Virus record (IMG/VR): IMGVR_UViG_2537561930_000016
DNA: 23,314 nt
From: a virus
Lineage: Duplodnaviria; Heunggongvirae; Uroviricota; Caudoviricetes
Strand: one strand, 5' to 3'
The position numbers and the translations under genes are program-made. The notes under the pieces were generated by a model. That model saw nothing but the letters and a program-made list of their open reading frames with translations. It was not told the DNA's origin and made no database searches. Positions 3,052 to 23,314 of the stretch are shown here, one piece after another. Each line of letters begins with the position of its first letter. Within the stretch, counting starts at the first letter, position 1.

Positions 3052-3852
3052 ATGATTACTCCTGCACAGCAACACTGGCAGAACGTGATGGCACAGCGCG
3101 CAGGCCGGGCGAATGAAGGCGTGGACCACGCCGCGCGTACCGCGCATGAAGAGGTGCTGTATCGTCTGCGTCTGGCACAGGCCCGGCTTAAGGGCGTACA
3201 GGCCAGAAGCGCGAAAGCCGCCATCAAAAAAGAGTTGTTGCCGGACTTTTCCGGCTGGATTGAGGGAACGCTGGAGGCTGACGGCGGGCAGCAGGATGAA
3301 GTGATTGCCACGCTGATGGTGTGGGCAATTGACTGCGGCGATCTTCCGCTTGCGCTGCGTATTGGCGCGTATGTGGTCCGTCACAACCTCATCATGCCGG
3401 ATAACTTTGGCCGTACTGCTGCCACGGTACTGACCGAAGAAATCTGCAACCCGGTACTGACGCAGGCCGGGACGGATGCCGACGCGGATTTGTCCGCCTT
3501 TATCGAACCACTGGACACACTTTGGGAAATTGTCGCCAACCAGGATATGCCGGACGAAGTGCGAGCCAAATTATGCAAGGCGTGCGCCTTTGCCCGTCGT
3601 GGTCTGACCGATGCAGACAACATGGCCTTATCACTGAAGCTGCTGCGCGAAGCGATGCACCTGAACCCGAACGCAGGTGTGAAACGCGAGATTGCAACCC
3701 TTTCCCGCGCCCTGAAAAAAGCCGATTCCGCAGCCGAACCAGAAGACGCCAGCGCACCGCAGGCGCAGGACGAAAGCAGCAAAAGTAAAAAGACAACGCG
3801 GAAGCCTGCAACACGAAAAACCACCGCGACGCAGAAGGCGAAGCGCGGTTAA
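3052..3852 (+). CDS. M: Terminase small (endonuclease) subunit gpM-like
   Basis: 266-aa ORF with GGAGAG RBS. Similar to P2 gpM as I recall it (ITPAQQ..., MPDEVRAKL, AGVKREI, basic Lys/Arg-rich C-terminus). Confidence 0.85.
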   Translation: MITPAQQHWQNVMAQRAGRANEGVDHAARTAHEEVLYRLRLAQARLKGVQARSAKAAIKKELLPDFSGWIEGTLEADGGQQDEVIATLMVWAIDCGDLPLALRIGAYVVRHNLIMPDNFGRTAATVLTEEICNPVLTQAGTDADADLSAFIEPLDTLWEIVANQDMPDEVRAKLCKACAFARRGLTDADNMALSLKLLREAMHLNPNAGVKREIATLSRALKKADSAAEPEDASAPQAQDESSKSKKTTRKPATRKTTATQKAKRG

Positions 3853-5918: not shown

Positions 5919-6372
5919 TTCCCTGCGTGAAGCCATGACCCGTTCATGCCGATGGTGTCAGGCCAACCCGGAAAAATTCACCATTTTCGTGGAGAGCGGC
6001 AACATTGAAACGACCGGAGAAACGCCCTCGTTTGTTTACCGCTATCAGATGGTGATGTTTGTCATGGATTACGCCGGGGAGCTGGACGACCTCACGCTGC
6101 CGCTGCTGGCGTGGTTATCCGAAAATCAGCCACAGTTGTTGCTCAATCCGGAGCGTAATCAGGACATCAAATTCTCCGCCGTTATCAATGACGATGACAG
6201 CGCCGATCTCCTGTTTACGCTCCCTCTGCGGGAACGCGTTCGCATCACGCGCAGCAGTCAGGGGACACCGCAGGCAGAACACCTGCCGGAGCCAAAACCC
6301 CGCCTGCCATCTTCCGAAGGCGACTGGTCGCATGTATTCCAGGATGTGACGTGGGGTGAAAGCGATGGATAA
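5905..6372 (+). CDS. R: Tail completion protein gpR-like
   Basis: 155-aa ORF MLKTDSLREAMT...; resembles P2 gpR (MLKPDSLR...), same length and position. Confidence 0.8.
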   Translation: MLKTDSLREAMTRSCRWCQANPEKFTIFVESGNIETTGETPSFVYRYQMVMFVMDYAGELDDLTLPLLAWLSENQPQLLLNPERNQDIKFSAVINDDDSADLLFTLPLRERVRITRSSQGTPQAEHLPEPKPRLPSSEGDWSHVFQDVTWGESDG

Positions 6373-7000
6373 GGCATTCACCCGCGTGGATGAAACCTTT
6401 GAGGCCATCCGCGACAGCCTGAATCAGCAGGCCATCAATAACATCGCCAGAAAGCTGGCACAGGATTTACGCCGCGCCCAGCAGGCGCGTATCCGGTCAC
6501 AGAAAGCGCCGGACGGGACCGCGTGGACACCACGCAGACGCCGCGTAACCCGGATACAGGAACGCATTCGCTTTATCTGGAATAACGAAGCACGCACGCT
6601 GAAAAACTGGCATCACGACACGGGGAAATACGGGCGAACCATTACCGGGTGGGATGAGGATAAAAACAATATCCGCACGTTTTACCGGGATGACATCGAC
6701 CGTTTTCTGGAAATACGCACCCGGCGCATCAACCAGGACAGCACAAAGCGCGTCCCCATGTTCGTAAAACTGCGCACCGCCCGCTACCTGAAAGCCCGTG
6801 CAGATGCTTCCGGTGTGACGGTGGGTTACAGCGGCGTGGCCGCACGTATTGCCCGCGTTCATCAGTTCGGTGAGCGCGATCAGGTTGCGCCGGGCATTTT
6901 CACCGATTACCCGGTACGTGAGCTGTTGGGCATCAGCCAGGCAGATGAACGCCTGATTTATAACACGGTGCTGGGCCGGATTGCGGAGGCTGTACGGTGA
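6365..7000 (+). CDS. S: Tail completion / virion morphogenesis protein gpS-like (longer than P2 gpS)
   Basis: ORF 6356..7000; ATG 6365 preferred. N-terminus (ARKLAQDLRRAQQARIRSQKAPDGTAW) and C-terminus (IARVHQFGERD...LLGIS..DE) resemble P2 gpS; the central part appears extra. Confidence 0.7.
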   Translation: MDKAFTRVDETFEAIRDSLNQQAINNIARKLAQDLRRAQQARIRSQKAPDGTAWTPRRRRVTRIQERIRFIWNNEARTLKNWHHDTGKYGRTITGWDEDKNNIRTFYRDDIDRFLEIRTRRINQDSTKRVPMFVKLRTARYLKARADASGVTVGYSGVAARIARVHQFGERDQVAPGIFTDYPVRELLGISQADERLIYNTVLGRIAEAVR

Positions 7001-12737: not shown

Positions 12738-13451
12738 TTAAATACTCCCCGCGTTATACCACGTCCCATTAATGCAATACTGAATTGGCCTTGCCTGAGT
12801 TGTATCAATTAATTCATCACGGTTTCCGTTAACTGAACCCGTAACGACATAACCTGACCTGTCAGACCAGCCGGGACCATTCCATGTCTGAACAGATGAC
12901 AGACCGCCAAGGCGAATACCTGTAATAAACCTTGAGTTACATTCTGCCCGCGTATATGCACCAACATCTCCCGCTGAAGGTTTTCGTGTCGTGGTATAGA
13001 AATCTGACCAACCTAATTCAAACCCATAACCATCACGAGCCGACCTGTAGGAAATGCCACCATTTTTATAATTCACACGGAATTGTACGGCAGGACAGCT
13101 ACCAGCATTTATATTAAAGTGAAGAATTAATGCAGATGCACCACCAATCAGGGCGTTATATGCACCACTATCCCAATTCCATCCAACGGATGTATCACCA
13201 TTAACAGTATTACCTGTTTGTCGGAGTGCAAATGCATTGACATTTTTGGCACTAATTGAAATATCGCTAGAACCATCAAAACCAACTCCAGCAATTTTTC
13301 GTGCTGTTTTCAGCTTTGTTGCAGTAGCGGCATTGCCGGACAGTTCCCCAGAAAGGCCACCGCTGAATGTTTGTCGATTGGTCCAGGTATTCGCTGTACT
13401 GAGTAACGGTATTTTCTCCCCGCTTGTGCCGAGTTCTCGTAAACCGAGGTT
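12738..13451 (-). CDS. Alternative tail-fibre C-terminal cassette (promoterless, no start codon; expressed only after inversion fuses it to the constant part of H)
   Basis: Minus-strand frame open from just after TAA (13454..13452) to stop at 12738. Hand translation ...LGLRELGTSGEKIPLLSTANTWTNRQTFSGGLSGELSGNAATATKLKTARKIAGVGFDGS...INGTWYNAGSI; shares LGL crossover codons and C-terminal INGTWYN motif with H. ORF track shows only the last 112 aa (from internal GTG). Confidence 0.75.
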   Translation of the reverse strand, partial: NLGLRELGTSGEKIPLLSTANTWTNRQTFSGGLSGELSGNAATATKLKTARKIAGVGFDGSSDISISAKNVNAFALRQTGNTVNGDTSVGWNWDSGAYNALIGGASALILHFNINAGSCPAVQFRVNYKNGGISYRSARDGYGFELGWSDFYTTTRKPSAGDVGAYTRAECNSRFITGIRLGGLSSVQTWNGPGWSDRSGYVVTGSVNGNRDELIDTTQARPIQYCINGTWYNAGSI

Positions 13452-21167: not shown

Positions 21168-22604
21168 TTAACTAAATTTTATATGACTTGATGCTAGAGC
21201 TTTAAATTCAGTGGTTTTCATAGTTTTTTCCAAAGTATCACCATTTACAATCAGATAATCTAAGATTTGCTTGAGCTTATCACTAACAACATTAGTTCTT
21301 ATATCCGTTAGAATTTGTACAGCATGCTTTCTACAGTTTTGGTTAGATAATAAGTGGTAAATCTCTTGATTATAGAATGCAATGATAACTTGAACAATAT
21401 TATCATCGCCCAGCATATTCAATATTGAATCGTATATGGGTTTGCCTAAAGGAGAAACACCAGCGTTATAAGAAACACCATTACCAATACGACACGATAG
21501 AATTATACGAATTAATTTTTCTTTACGTTCATTAGGAATATCCGATTCATTGGAAATGTAACTTAATATTTTCCTAGCATGAGGAACTTCATTATAGAAA
21601 TTATCCCAACCGCTGTGAGCAGAACTTAAATCATCCAGATATTCATCAAGCAGAATAACCCTAGCCTCAAGGGTTTTAAATTTATTACCAGAGCAAAATT
21701 CGAAAAACTCGTTACCTGCTAAAAATTTATCATTGTGCAAGTTGGTTCGATAACCATCAAGCGCAACACCTAGTTTATATTTAATATTATTATCTGCACA
21801 TTCCCAAACTGTTGGAGCAATTTCAGATATATTTTTCTTAAGGATGTTATTTGCACCAGCACCAATATACATACCGAAGATTGTCTGAAGGACATTATCA
21901 CAATTTCTTGTGTGTAGCTGTTTGAGCCCATTTTTCATATGCTGCAAACTAGAGCTACTGATGACTTCAGTTTGATTTCGCAGATTCTCAACAAAAGCCT
22001 TAACTTGCAGTGCAGCCTCTGAAGGTGTGTCATTGATAACTTCTTGAACACATGTTTGCAACCACCCCATCAGTTCATAAGCATTGATTTTCGCATCATT
22101 AGGATGACTGGCTCCAAGATCATTGCGCATAATTAAAATATGGGTGAGTTTTTTATAAATTGAGTCGGAGATCAATTCTAATTTAGCGCAATTGTCAAGA
22201 AGAACTTTATCTTTAATACCACTTAAGTCACTTTCAGTACTAAATAGATCTCTATGTTTACCACCAACGGCAGCATCAAAAAAAAGTTCCAAACCATAAA
22301 TAACTGTCTTTCTTCGTAAGTTAAGTACAACTTCGTTCCAGACATAATTCAAGGCAGCATCAAACAAACCAATAGCACTTGCTGCTGCAAATTTGGACAA
22401 ATATCTAGAGTCACGCTTAACGTCTTCTGGTAACGCCATCACAAACTGAGGAAAGTTTGTTTGGACAACCTGACGCTCCATCGTTGAAGCAAGAACATTT
22501 TCTTTTGGTAATCCAAGCGACTCCAAAAATTGCTCGAATCGATTGAAATCTGTTGATACGAGTTGCCCTTGTGCTTGTGTGCTAGCTATTTCATGTGTGC
22601 TCAT
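21168..22604 (-). CDS. Hypothetical 478-aa cargo protein in AT-rich island; candidate abortive-infection/defence protein with HEPN-like Rx6H motif (R160..H167, IMRNDLGASHPN)
   Basis: Long uninterrupted minus-strand ORF in a region of ~30-35% GC (by eye), between two phage genes of much higher GC; convergent with gpD and divergent from ogr. No Walker A motif or other family signature that I recognise. Confidence 0.7.
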   Translation of the reverse strand: MSTHEIASTQAQGQLVSTDFNRFEQFLESLGLPKENVLASTMERQVVQTNFPQFVMALPEDVKRDSRYLSKFAAASAIGLFDAALNYVWNEVVLNLRRKTVIYGLELFFDAAVGGKHRDLFSTESDLSGIKDKVLLDNCAKLELISDSIYKKLTHILIMRNDLGASHPNDAKINAYELMGWLQTCVQEVINDTPSEAALQVKAFVENLRNQTEVISSSSLQHMKNGLKQLHTRNCDNVLQTIFGMYIGAGANNILKKNISEIAPTVWECADNNIKYKLGVALDGYRTNLHNDKFLAGNEFFEFCSGNKFKTLEARVILLDEYLDDLSSAHSGWDNFYNEVPHARKILSYISNESDIPNERKEKLIRIILSCRIGNGVSYNAGVSPLGKPIYDSILNMLGDDNIVQVIIAFYNQEIYHLLSNQNCRKHAVQILTDIRTNVVSDKLKQILDYLIVNGDTLEKTMKTTEFKALASSHIKFS

Positions 22605-22722: not shown

Positions 22723-22983
22723 ATGTTCCGTTGTCCGCTTTGTGGCGCATCTGCCCGAATCCGCACCAGTCGTCCGGAAAATGATTCAAACACCGTGCGG
22801 CAAAAGTATTACCAGTGTAACAACCTGGAATGCGGCGTATGCTTCTCAACACTGGAAGCCTTCCATAAATTCACATCAAAACACGCCTCCGCCGTTCACT
22901 CTTCAGAAGGTATCCCGTGGCATGAGCTGCCAGCTTCACACAGAGGAAACAATCAGATGAGTTTGCCTTTACCTCAGAACTAA
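22723..22983 (+). CDS. ogr: Ogr/Delta-family zinc-finger late-gene transcriptional activator
   Basis: ATG 22723 inside ORF 22663..22983: MFRCPLCGASARIRTSR...YYQCNNLECGVCFSTLE, a CxxC...CxxxxC zinc-finger pattern resembling P2 Ogr (MFHCPLCQHAAHARTSR...HQCQNVNCSATF). Confidence 0.85.
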   Translation: MFRCPLCGASARIRTSRPENDSNTVRQKYYQCNNLECGVCFSTLEAFHKFTSKHASAVHSSEGIPWHELPASHRGNNQMSLPLPQN

Positions 22984-23043
22984 CAGGCAGAATTGCCGGA
23001 TTAACAAAAAAGCGATAGATTACGCGCGGGTGCCTTTCGGCTG

Positions 23044-23256
23044 ATGGTCGGAGGGAATACCCGAAGGCCAGATGTGGAAAGGCCCCGGAAAACATCTCTG
23101 TTTAACCGAGGCCCTAACCGCATTACCTTGACAAGTGAAAGGTTAGCGCCTCTCCGGAAAAGGAGCAAGTGCTATGTCGCAAAAATCGCTTACGGCCATC
23201 ACGTTCTGCGTGACGGCAATCCTCATCATCTGGATGTTGCACGGTTCGCTGTGTGA
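23044..23256 (+). CDS. Possible mok-like overlapping reading frame of hok-type locus
   Basis: 70-aa ORF in a different frame overlapping the 5' half of the hok-like ORF, as mok does in hok/sok loci; no sequence-level recognition. Confidence 0.3.
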   Translation: MVGGNTRRPDVERPRKTSLFNRGPNRITLTSERLAPLRKRSKCYVAKIAYGHHVLRDGNPHHLDVARFAV

Positions 23257-23314
23257 AATACGGATGAGCTTCTGGGGAGCGGAGTTTGCGGCGTTCTTAC
23301 AGTGTAAGCAGTAA
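23174..23314 (+). CDS. hok: Hok/Gef-family type I toxin (small membrane peptide)
   Basis: ATG 23174 with AAGGAG RBS; 46 aa MSQKSLTAITFCVTAILIIWMLHGSLCEIRMSFWGAEFAAFLQCKQ. Pattern (hydrophobic TM)-W-M-x3-SLCE[IL]-x7-E[FL]AAFL-x-CK matches Hok family members as I recall them. Stop codon is the last 3 nt of the window. Confidence 0.7.
   Translation: MSQKSLTAITFCVTAILIIWMLHGSLCEIRMSFWGAEFAAFLQCKQ

What the first reader, a model, noticed from the sequence alone, without database searches (positions are those of the whole stretch)
22984..23314. Hok-family type I toxin with overlapping mok-like frame immediately downstream of ogr
A 46-aa ORF (23174..23314) with a good RBS has a hydrophobic N-terminal helix and a C-terminal SLCEIR...EFAAFL.CK pattern that I recognise as the Hok/Gef family signature (closest to HokA-like sequences in my memory). 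A 70-aa frame overlaps its 5' half like mok. In P2 the region after ogr is the attachment site, so this module is either host DNA just outside the prophage or a moron at the prophage end. hok/sok loci are known to exclude some phages (for example T4), so the adjacency is functionally suggestive. A Sok-like antisense RNA would be expected in 23040..23175 but cannot be called from sequence alone.
Basis: partly seen in the sequence, partly recalled or inferred. Interest (0 to 1): 0.5.

Follow-up and report, generated by a model that had tools for sequence, protein, structure and literature searches.

The report
Hok toxin cassette at prophage end
The 46-codon gene after ogr is a real but already annotated Hok-family membrane toxin with its antisense-RNA control region, carried as cargo just inside the right end of a P2-like (P88-type) E. 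coli prophage, so the finding is correct but ordinary.

Summary
ORF 23174..23314 matches Pfam HOK_GEF above its curated cut-off, and the DNA upstream (23028..23187) matches the Rfam hok/sok leader model (E=2e-9, below the gathering score). The window stops at the hok stop codon, so it lacks the 3' UTR. In a 99.9%-identical E. coli chromosome the 3' UTR carries GGCACCC, complementary to the mRNA 5' end GGGUGCC. The full transcript is predicted to fold with its ends paired (z=-7.2), and this pairing is kept in 10-11 of 11 homologous loci. A Sok-like antisense RNA (about 23133 to 23076, minus strand) with a promoter resembling R1's is predicted in all 11 homologues, but it is not demonstrated. 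A 25-bp att core repeat lies 262 bp beyond the window, so hok is phage cargo, not host DNA. The same ogr-hok segment occurs in 1158 of 5426 complete E. coli genomes and in phage P88, already annotated as Hok/Gef. One weak point: the 70-codon "mok-like" frame exists here, but no read-through upstream ORF is conserved (2 of 11 loci; 18 of 53 viral-contig variants). It is also not the characterised hokW-sokW of Sp5, but a second, unstudied HokA-like subfamily. Verdict: correct, already known, low interest.

The parts
22723..22983 (+). ogr (late-gene activator zinc-finger protein), the last conventional phage gene before the cassette
   Evidence: Pfam Ogr_Delta E=4.7e-14. RefSeq annotates the same CDS in L001 at 6124-6384.
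22993..23021 (+). Predicted hok promoter: -35 TTGCCG (22993-22998), 17-nt spacer, -10 TAGATT (23016-23021), 6 nt before the inferred +1 at 23028
   Evidence: Read from the sequence. The hexamers sit in the same positions in homologous loci (TTGCC/TTGCG; TAAATT/TACATT/TAGAAT) in the alignment. The site falls below the threshold of the generic scan. Inferred, not shown.
23028..23173 (+). hok mRNA 5' leader. Its first 9 nt, GGGTGCCTT (23028-23036), form the tac-like 5' end that pairs with the fbi-like 3' element outside the window.
   Evidence: Rfam RF01794 matches 23028-23187 on the + strand, 48.4 bits, E=1.9e-9. The same model hits an R1-type control locus on the hok-sense strand from +1 to the hok AUG at 87 bits. 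The end pairing appears in the MFE fold and the consensus fold.
23044..23256 (+). 70-codon 'mok-like' frame (ATG at mRNA +17) that reads through the hok RBS and start; status doubtful
   Evidence: The ORF is present. The equivalent ORF is 4-31 codons in 10 of 11 homologues. A read-through ORF from this ATG occurs in only 9 of 53 IMG/VR variants.
23072..23131 (+). Small leader ORF (19 codons, ATG at +45, in the hok frame, TGA at 23129-23131) preceded by GAAGG (23063-23067). The start codon and SD-like box are invariant; the ORF length is not.
   Evidence: The ATG and GAAGG are invariant in 11 of 11 loci, while ORF length ranges from 1 to 79 codons. In the full-length consensus fold this region pairs with nt 8-22.
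23076..23133 (-). Predicted Sok-like antisense RNA of about 58 nt: a 5' tail predicted single-stranded, a GC-rich hairpin, then UUUCC
   Evidence: Fold of the minus strand: -26.4 kcal/mol, z=-3.4. The same architecture is predicted in all 11 homologues, with a variable 5' tail and a different upper-stem sequence. The ends are inferred from the promoter position and R1 homology, not mapped.
23140..23168 (-). Predicted Sok promoter on the minus strand: -35 TTGCTC (complement of 23163-23168), 17-nt spacer, -10 TAACCT (complement of 23140-23145)
   Evidence: It aligns with the position I assign, from recalled R1 literature, to R1's Sok promoter (TTGCGC-17-TATCCT) in the Rfam alignment. It is conserved in 11 of 11 loci, with TACCCT in one. 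The generic scan misses it, and in the R1-type control locus it also reports nothing at the position I take to be the Sok promoter.
23144..23174 (+). Local hairpin that sequesters the hok Shine-Dalgarno (AGGAG, 23161-23165) and the first base of the start codon
   Evidence: Consensus structure columns 121-152. Pairs are kept in 11 of 11 loci, with one-sided G-C to G-U changes. The hairpin is also present in single-sequence folds.
23174..23314 (+). hok toxin gene, 46 aa: hydrophobic N-terminal segment (residues about 6-23), then SLCEIR...EFAAFLQCKQ
   Evidence: Pfam HOK_GEF 29.9 bits against a cut-off of 22. PHROG 251 E=1.3e-22. 43% identity to K-12 HokA. dN/dS is 0.27-0.44 against distant homologues. 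RefSeq WP_000078916.1 is annotated 'Hok/Gef family protein'.

Best explanation
This is an intact hok/sok-type type I toxin-antitoxin cassette of about 400 bp. It is carried as accessory cargo (a moron) between ogr and attP of a P88-like (Xuanwuvirus, Peduoviridae) prophage integrated at the ihfA terminator.

What the computations show:
- The ORF is a Hok/Gef-family peptide.
- The leader is homologous to the hok mRNA leader.
- The full-length transcript is predicted to close on itself by pairing its 5' end (GGGUGCC) with GGCACCC in the 3' UTR, which lies beyond the window.
- The hok ribosome-binding site sits in a conserved hairpin.
- The cassette lies inside the prophage.

What is inferred by analogy with plasmid R1 hok/sok:
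- The stable, folded hok mRNA is translationally inert.
- Slow 3' trimming removes the fold-back element, and the 5' end refolds.
- The activated mRNA is then either bound by a short-lived antisense Sok-like RNA (transcribed from the minus strand, about 23133 to 23076) and destroyed, or, once Sok has decayed, translated into Hok.
- Hok inserts into the inner membrane and kills or arrests the cell.

My best guess for its role is that Hok is released when transcription of the locus stops, through loss of the prophage or shut-off by an infecting lytic phage. It would then act as an addiction and abortive-infection module. Helping lysis after induction, as shown for the distinct hokW-sokW locus of Sp5, is the main alternative role.

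Unlike R1, translation is probably not obligatorily coupled to a conserved mok reading frame.
For: - Family: Pfam HOK_GEF above its cut-off; PHROG 251 E=1e-22; best NCBIfam model is HokA; 43% identity to HokA.
- Leader: RF01794 E=1.9e-9, with the orientation checked on an R1-type control.
- Fold-back: the MFE of the 408-nt transcript pairs nt 1-15 with the 3' region, z=-7.2. The consensus fold of 11 loci keeps the 7-bp end pairing in 10-11 of 11, and 13 other pairs show compensatory double changes.
- Refolding: removing the 3' element refolds the 5' end into a hairpin.
- Antisense unit: Sok-like promoter hexamers and a tail-plus-hairpin RNA are predicted in 11 of 11 loci.
- Selection: hok dN/dS is 0.27-0.44.
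- Location: the 25-bp att core AAAGAAAAAAGGCCGCAGAGCGGCC is found at both prophage ends, with attR 262 bp past the hok stop. The cassette is present in deposited phage genomes. Ogr lies upstream in 87 of 120 IMG/VR matches.
- Mechanism and roles of relatives: PMC9841398 (R1 hok/sok regulation) and PMC8621323 (hokW-sokW; it also cites T4 inhibition by R1 hok-sok).
Against: - There are no expression data for either RNA.
- The Sok promoter and RNA ends are assigned only by homology and were not found by the generic promoter scan. That scan also reports nothing at the position I take to be the Sok promoter in the R1-type control.
- The RF01794 score (48.4) is below the gathering score (59).
- The end pairing is invariant, so it carries no covariation support of its own.
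- In R1, mok translation up to the hok SD is mandatory (PMC9841398). Here most relatives lack any such ORF, so Hok might be poorly translated or not translated at all.
- The biological role was not tested.
Confidence: 0.85

Rival explanations
1. The cassette is a silent or decaying relic. The hok ORF and RNA elements persist, but without a conserved mok to open the sequestered ribosome-binding site Hok is never made. The locus would then be neutral baggage, like most chromosomal hok loci of E. coli K-12.
For: - No read-through upstream ORF in 9 of 11 homologues and 35 of 53 IMG/VR variants.
- The hok SD is paired in every fold.
- Clearly degenerate copies exist: the E. albertii plasmid L010 has an early stop and a deletion.
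- K-12 hokA is interrupted by IS150.
Against: - The 46-aa ORF is intact in essentially all variants sampled, and dN/dS is 0.27-0.44.
- Non-coding elements (5' end, fbi, SD hairpin, Sok hairpin) are as conserved as the coding part, or more so.
- The window's own allele does have a read-through ORF.
- The cassette is retained in about a fifth of complete E. coli genomes and across phage, plasmid and chromosomal contexts.
Confidence: 0.12
2. The module is host chromosomal DNA lying just outside the prophage, not part of the phage.
For: The window ends at the hok stop, so its own sequence cannot settle the point.
Against: - Identity to prophage-free K-12 begins 262 bp after the hok stop, at the 25-bp core that is repeated at the integrase end.
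- K-12 has only about 100 bp between btuC and ihfA, with no hok.
- hok is inside the circular genome records of P88 and related phages.
Confidence: 0.01
3. It is the previously characterised hokW-sokW system of Stx phages, simply relocated. This would fit the 'MokW-like host killing' label used in phage annotations.
For: The PHROG 251 name. There is 81% nucleotide identity over the whole transcription unit to a locus in VT2-Sakai (Sp5) and 933W.
Against: The cloning primers in PMC8621323 show that HokW starts MKQQKAM and ends DYESEK, a 51-aa Gef/RelF-like peptide. The Sp5 locus that matches this window is a different, lom-adjacent 46-aa gene (MSQKSLITV...CKQ) that is not even annotated in NC_000902. 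The 'MokW-like' label is a family name, not an identity.
Confidence: 0.02

Closest known systems
hok/sok (parB) of plasmid R1, the founding type I toxin-antitoxin system
   Same: - Hok-family toxin (39% identity over 31 aa) and a homologous leader (RF01794).
- 5' end GGGUGCC (R1: GGCGCUU) pairs with a complementary 3' element.
- The hok SD is sequestered.
- The antisense promoter hexamers lie at the corresponding position, over the hok SD region.
- The predicted Sok has a 5' tail plus a hairpin.
   Different: - The toxin is 46 aa rather than 52 and ends in a CKQ motif typical of HokA.
- The leader is about 20 nt shorter.
- No start codon sits at the position of R1's mok start, and no conserved read-through ORF exists.
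- It is carried by a phage, not a plasmid.
- The RF01794 score is below the gathering threshold.
hokA/mokA/sokA of the E. coli K-12 chromosome
   Same: It is the closest characterised protein relative: 43% identity, with shared M-QK start, W-M, SLCE and AAFL-CK motifs. The best NCBIfam model is HokA. The mRNA has the same style of ends (GGGUGC ... GCACCC).
   Different: No detectable nucleotide similarity. It falls below the HokA equivalog cut-off (34 against 89 bits). K-12 hokA is disrupted by IS150, whereas this copy is intact.
Unnamed lom-adjacent hok locus of Stx-converting phages (VT2-Sakai 44532-44906; 933W L0129 region)
   Same: Same subfamily. It shows 81% nucleotide identity from the promoter to the fbi element, a 46-aa Hok with the same ends, and the same predicted Sok architecture.
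   Different: It sits in lambdoid phages next to lom rather than in P2-like phages next to ogr. The sequence of the predicted Sok 5' tail and upper stem differs. In the sampled Stx phages (VT2-Sakai, P27, phi367) no ATG/GTG/TTG read-through ORF was found; P27 has one only if a +102 TTG start is counted. I found no experimental work on it in the held library.
hokW-sokW of Sakai prophage 5 (Takada et al. 2021, PMC8621323)
   Same: It is a prophage-borne Hok-family type I TA. It offers a tested precedent that a phage hok can promote lysis and phage release after induction.
   Different: It is a different Hok branch (51 aa, Gef/RelF-like) at a different locus, and is not an orthologue.

Membership tests
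Hok/Gef toxin family (Pfam PF01848) | Significant match to the family profile above the curated cut-off | tested here: met
   29.9 bits against a gathering score of 22, E=4.1e-7, covering residues 7-44. PHROG 251 gives E=1.3e-22.
Hok/Gef toxin family (Pfam PF01848) | Peptide of about 50 aa with one N-terminal hydrophobic helix and a C-terminal tail carrying the conserved SLCE / AAF motif | tested here: met
   Direct reading: residues 6-23 are LTAITFCVTAILIIWMLH, followed by GSLCEIR...EFAAFLQCKQ. The motifs align with HokA and R1 Hok. No dedicated transmembrane predictor was run.
Hok/Gef toxin family (Pfam PF01848) | Membrane-directed toxicity when expressed | not testable with these tools
   This needs an induction assay.
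hok/sok type I toxin-antitoxin locus (R1 paradigm, PMC9841398) | Long-range pairing of the mRNA 5' end (tac) with a 3' fold-back element (fbi) | tested here: met
   GGGUGCCUU (23028-23036) is complementary to AAGGCACCC at L001 6772-6780, 58-66 nt beyond the window. It is paired in the MFE fold, z=-7.2, and in 10-11 of 11 loci in the consensus fold. The pairs are invariant, so there is no covariation at these positions.
hok/sok type I toxin-antitoxin locus (R1 paradigm, PMC9841398) | Cis-encoded antisense Sok RNA with its own promoter, complementary to the hok leader | tested here: inconclusive
   Hexamers TTGCTC-17-TAACCT sit at the position I assign to R1's promoter, and a tail-plus-hairpin RNA is predicted in 11 of 11 loci. 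The generic scan is negative, and it also reports nothing at the position I take to be the Sok promoter in the R1-type control. No transcript data are available.
hok/sok type I toxin-antitoxin locus (R1 paradigm, PMC9841398) | Overlapping mok reading frame whose translation up to the hok SD enables hok translation | tested here: inconclusive
   It is present in this allele (23044..23256). It is absent from 9 of 11 homologues and 35 of 53 IMG/VR variants, and where present its start points vary (+17, +45, +47, about +102).
hok/sok type I toxin-antitoxin locus (R1 paradigm, PMC9841398) | Refolding of the 5' end after 3' truncation (tac-ucb type switch) | tested here: inconclusive
   In silico only. 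Without the last ~43 nt of the 5'-fbi transcript (L001 6766-6780 and beyond), nt 1-15 pair with nt 19-35. 3' processing itself cannot be tested here.
Rfam RF01794 (sok / hok leader) | Score at or above the family's gathering threshold | tested here: not met
   48.4 bits against 59, although E=1.9e-9 and the match is full length, positions 1-157. An R1-type control scores 87.2 bits. Relatives of this subfamily score 35.6-47.9 bits.
HokA (NCBIfam NF007290, equivalog) | Score above the equivalog cut-off | tested here: not met
   34 bits against a cut-off of 89. It is HokA-like, not HokA.
hokW-sokW of Sp5 | Orthology to the characterised HokW (51 aa, MKQQKAM...DYESEK) | tested here: not met
   The primer sequences in PMC8621323 define a different peptide. 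The Sp5 homologue of this window is a separate locus beside lom.
Prophage moron (accessory gene inside the phage genome) | Lies between the att core repeats and is present in the packaged phage genome | tested here: met
   The 25-bp core is found at both ends, with attR 262 bp distal to hok. hok is inside the P88, Chuche and PhiR44_2 genome records. It has its own promoter-like and terminator-like elements.

The most novel reading that the evidence does not exclude
This phage-borne HokA-like subfamily may be a hok/sok variant that has dispensed with mok. Two thirds of its variants keep an intact toxin ORF, the fold-back pairing and the Sok unit, but have no ORF that reads into the hok ribosome-binding site. 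Hok translation would then be gated in another way, for example by Sok-dependent cleavage or refolding of the conserved SD hairpin, or by the invariant +45 mini-ORF. A further speculation concerns P88-like phages, which also carry ParM/ParR-like genes. These could pair with hok/sok as on plasmid R1 (parA plus parB), hinting at a plasmid-like maintenance phase.
Probability: 0.2. Interest if true: 0.4.

Novelty: already known. Interest (0 to 1): 0.13.

Why it matters
Little is new here. The gene is already annotated as Hok/Gef in RefSeq and in phage genomes, and it occurs in about a fifth of complete E. coli genomes. The check is still useful in four ways:
- It places the prophage boundary: hok is phage cargo.
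- It corrects a tempting misidentification: this is not the studied hokW-sokW.
- It shows that the window truncates the transcript's essential 3' element.
- It flags that the textbook mok coupling is not conserved in this widespread and experimentally unstudied subfamily.

If that subfamily proves active without mok, it would modestly revise the general hok/sok model.

Tried and rejected
- A 19-nt pattern scan of genome contigs gave 27 hits, about the number expected by chance. Only 4 were real (Salmonella, E. albertii, and two contigs labelled Vagococcus and Xanthomonas).
- blastn of the locus against a reconstructed K-12 hokA locus found no nucleotide similarity.
- The generic sigma-70 scan found no promoters in the locus. 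I discounted this for the Sok promoter because the scan also reports nothing at the position I take to be the Sok promoter in the R1-type control.
- Literature searches for hok with P2-like, ogr, P88 or Peduoviridae returned nothing specific.
- I first took the 'MokW-like' label and the 81% match to Sp5 to mean hokW-sokW. I rejected this after reading the primers in PMC8621323.
- I considered ATG+45 (23072) as the true mok equivalent because its start and SD are invariant and are sequestered in the full-length fold. I did not adopt it, because its ORF varies from 1 to 79 codons.
- For the neighbouring 478-aa ORF, Pfam, NCBIfam, PADLOC, PDB-sequence and phage-GenBank searches gave nothing usable.

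Full report
**Observation.** The 46-codon ORF is 23174..23314 (MSQKSLTAITFCVTAILIIWMLHGSLCEIRMSFWGAEFAAFLQCKQ). The 70-codon frame at 23044..23256 overlaps its 5' half. AAGGAG lies 8 nt before the ATG. ogr is 22723..22983 (Pfam Ogr_Delta, E=4.7e-14).

The Hok assignment is not a chance resemblance:
- Pfam HOK_GEF scores 29.9 bits against a curated cut-off of 22, E=4.1e-7.
- PHROG 251 gives E=1.3e-22.
- The best NCBIfam model is HokA, at 34 bits, far below its equivalog cut-off of 89.
- BLASTP gives 43% identity to K-12 HokA and 39% over 31 residues to R1 Hok.

So 'Hok family, HokA-like' is correct, but it is not HokA itself.

**Where it sits.** The last 715 bases of the window are 99.9% identical to E. 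coli STEC1585. There, RefSeq already calls the gene 'Hok/Gef family protein', followed 303 bp later by ihfA.

Identity to prophage-free K-12 starts 262 bp after the hok stop. The 25-bp sequence at that junction, AAAGAAAAAAGGCCGCAGAGCGGCC (part of the ihfA terminator), is repeated at the integrase end of the element next to btuC. hok is therefore inside a prophage of about 36 kb inserted between btuC and ihfA. It is not host DNA.

The same cassette lies inside the deposited genomes of P88, Chuche, PhiR44_2 and other Xuanwuvirus (Peduoviridae) phages. At least 80% of the ogr-hok segment is present in 1158 of 5426 complete E. coli genomes. Ogr is encoded upstream of 87 of 120 matches in IMG/VR.

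The window ends exactly at the hok stop codon, as do 36 IMG/VR loci. This looks like a provirus-boundary convention, and it cuts off the 3' UTR.

**The RNA side.** Rfam RF01794 ('sok') matches 23028..23187 on the plus strand at 48.4 bits, E=1.9e-9, below the gathering score of 59. As a control, the same model hits an R1-type locus on the hok-sense strand, from the mRNA +1 to the hok AUG, at 87 bits. The model therefore describes the hok leader, and the hit here means 'homologous hok leader'.

I read the rest of the transcript from the STEC1585 locus. The 3' UTR contains AAGGCACCC, the exact complement of the inferred 5' end GGGUGCCUU (23028-23036), followed by an intrinsic terminator. The 408-nt transcript folds with its two ends paired (-178 kcal/mol, z=-7.2).

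I aligned 11 loci of this subfamily: this prophage, P88, three Stx phages, an IncI1 plasmid, two other E. coli loci, Salmonella, E. albertii and one mislabelled contig. The consensus fold keeps the 7-bp end pairing in 10-11 of 11 sequences. It sequesters the hok SD and start in a conserved hairpin (23144-23174), and 13 pairs elsewhere show compensatory double changes. The end pairs themselves never vary, so they are supported by conservation, not covariation. Removing the 3' element makes the 5' end refold into a local hairpin. This is the behaviour described for R1 hok mRNA (PMC9841398).

**Sok.** On the minus strand, TTGCTC (complement of 23163-23168), a 17-nt spacer and TAACCT (complement of 23140-23145) lie at the position I assign, from recalled R1 literature, to R1's Sok promoter (TTGCGC-17-TATCCT) in the Rfam alignment. 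Transcription from there would give an RNA of about 58 nt (about 23133 to 23076). Its 5' tail is predicted single-stranded, followed by a GC-rich hairpin and UUUCC.

The same architecture is predicted in all 11 loci. The tail and the upper stem differ between lineages while the fold is kept. The generic promoter scan did not report this promoter. In the R1-type control it also reports nothing at the position I take to be the Sok promoter, so that negative result carries little weight. The Sok unit remains a prediction.

**Mok.** This is the part of the interpretation that does not hold up well. In R1, translation of mok up to the hok SD is mandatory for Hok synthesis (PMC9841398).

The window's allele does have a frame from ATG 23044 (+17) that reads through the hok SD. 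In the other ten aligned loci the ORF from that ATG is only 4-31 codons, and only E. albertii has any read-through ORF, from a different start at +45.

Among 53 parsable unique variants from IMG/VR, 35 have no ATG/GTG/TTG ORF reading into the hok SD. The 18 that do use at least four different starts.

A second candidate is ATG 23072 with GAAGG upstream. It is invariant and is paired in the closed fold, but its ORF ranges from 1 to 79 codons.

The hok ORF itself is intact throughout, with dN/dS of 0.27-0.44 against distant homologues. I conclude that the 70-aa frame is probably an allele-specific by-product of indels in the variable Sok-target region, and that this subfamily may not depend on mok. 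The alternative, that many copies are silent, cannot be excluded.

**Relation to known systems.** Phage annotations label the gene 'MokW-like host killing', and the whole transcription unit is 81% identical to a locus in VT2-Sakai (Sp5) and 933W. That locus is not the characterised hokW-sokW. The cloning primers of Takada et al. encode MKQQKAM...DYESEK, a 51-aa Gef-like peptide (PMC8621323). The Sp5 homologue of this window is a second, lom-adjacent, 46-aa hok that is not annotated in NC_000902.

The cassette also occurs on IncI1 plasmids and at chromosomal sites, so it is a mobile module of about 400 bp. I found no paper in the held library on the ogr-adjacent copy.

**Mechanism and role.** Shown here by computation: family membership, leader homology, predicted fold-back and SD sequestration, and location inside the prophage.

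Inferred from R1: the folded mRNA is inert; 3' trimming activates it; Sok binding leads to decay; when Sok is no longer made, Hok is translated and damages the inner membrane.

The role is a guess. The first possibility is addiction or abortive infection when transcription of the locus stops; T4 inhibition by R1 hok-sok is cited in PMC8621323. The second is help with lysis after induction, as shown for hokW-sokW (PMC8621323).

**Verdict.** The finding is real and its interpretation essentially right, apart from the doubtful mok. It is already annotated and widespread, so interest is low. The only mildly new point is the lack of a conserved mok in this unstudied HokA-like, phage-borne subfamily.

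Noticed in passing
window 21168..22604 (- strand): A 478-aa ORF lies between tail gene D and ogr. It has no Pfam, NCBIfam, PDB-sequence or phage-GenBank match, only PHROG 27609 (unknown function, E=3e-201) and a weak PADLOC hit (PDC-M04A, E=0.0096). The 1.7-kb segment carrying it is absent from phage P88, where D abuts the ogr region. It is therefore a variable cargo slot next to hok and possibly a defence gene.
   Followed up: partly
L012 4519-5797 (same prophage in STEC1585, outside the window): The prophage encodes ParM ('plasmid segregation protein ParM') and a 'plasmid partitioning/stability family protein'. Together with hok/sok this mirrors the two stability loci of plasmid R1 (parA and parB), which is curious for an integrating P2-like phage.
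   Followed up: no
L001 6977-7001 and L012 about 13370-13400 (att core); K-12 L003 about 3211-3235: The phage integrates into the terminator hairpin just downstream of ihfA, the gene for the alpha subunit of integration host factor. The 25-bp core is AAAGAAAAAAGGCCGCAGAGCGGCC. The terminator is rebuilt intact at attR.
   Followed up: partly
L012 12472-13271: Two small hypothetical genes (363 and 438 nt) lie between the integrase and attL, so there is a second cargo slot at the other prophage end.
   Followed up: no
window 23028..23187; control L011 282-453: Rfam RF01794, named 'sok antitoxin', matches the hok-sense strand from the mRNA 5' end to the hok start codon, both here and in an R1-type control. 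A hit to it marks the hok leader, not the strand of the Sok transcript.
   Followed up: yes
L004 (VT2-Sakai 44532-44906): Stx-converting phages carry a second hok locus beside lom in addition to the published hokW-sokW. It is unannotated in NC_000902 and in many Stx phage records, and annotation pipelines label it 'MokW-like', which invites confusion.
   Followed up: partly
L032 (Vagococcus sp. WN89Y contig) and L016 (Xanthomonas pisi DSM 18956, 857-bp contig): These contigs carry near-identical E. coli-type hok cassettes (94% and 82% nucleotide identity). Contamination or misassigned contigs seem more likely than true presence in these genera.
   Followed up: no
L057 4353-4377 and 5075-5099: One IMG/VR contig has two copies of the cassette 722 bp apart in the same orientation. 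Both encode the divergent MPQKTII... Hok variant.
   Followed up: no
window end (23314) and 36 IMG/VR loci: The window, like 36 of 122 IMG/VR matches, ends exactly at the hok stop codon. Provirus boundaries appear to be cut at the last called CDS. This removes the hok 3' UTR (fbi element and terminator) and about 260 bp of phage DNA up to attR.
   Followed up: yes
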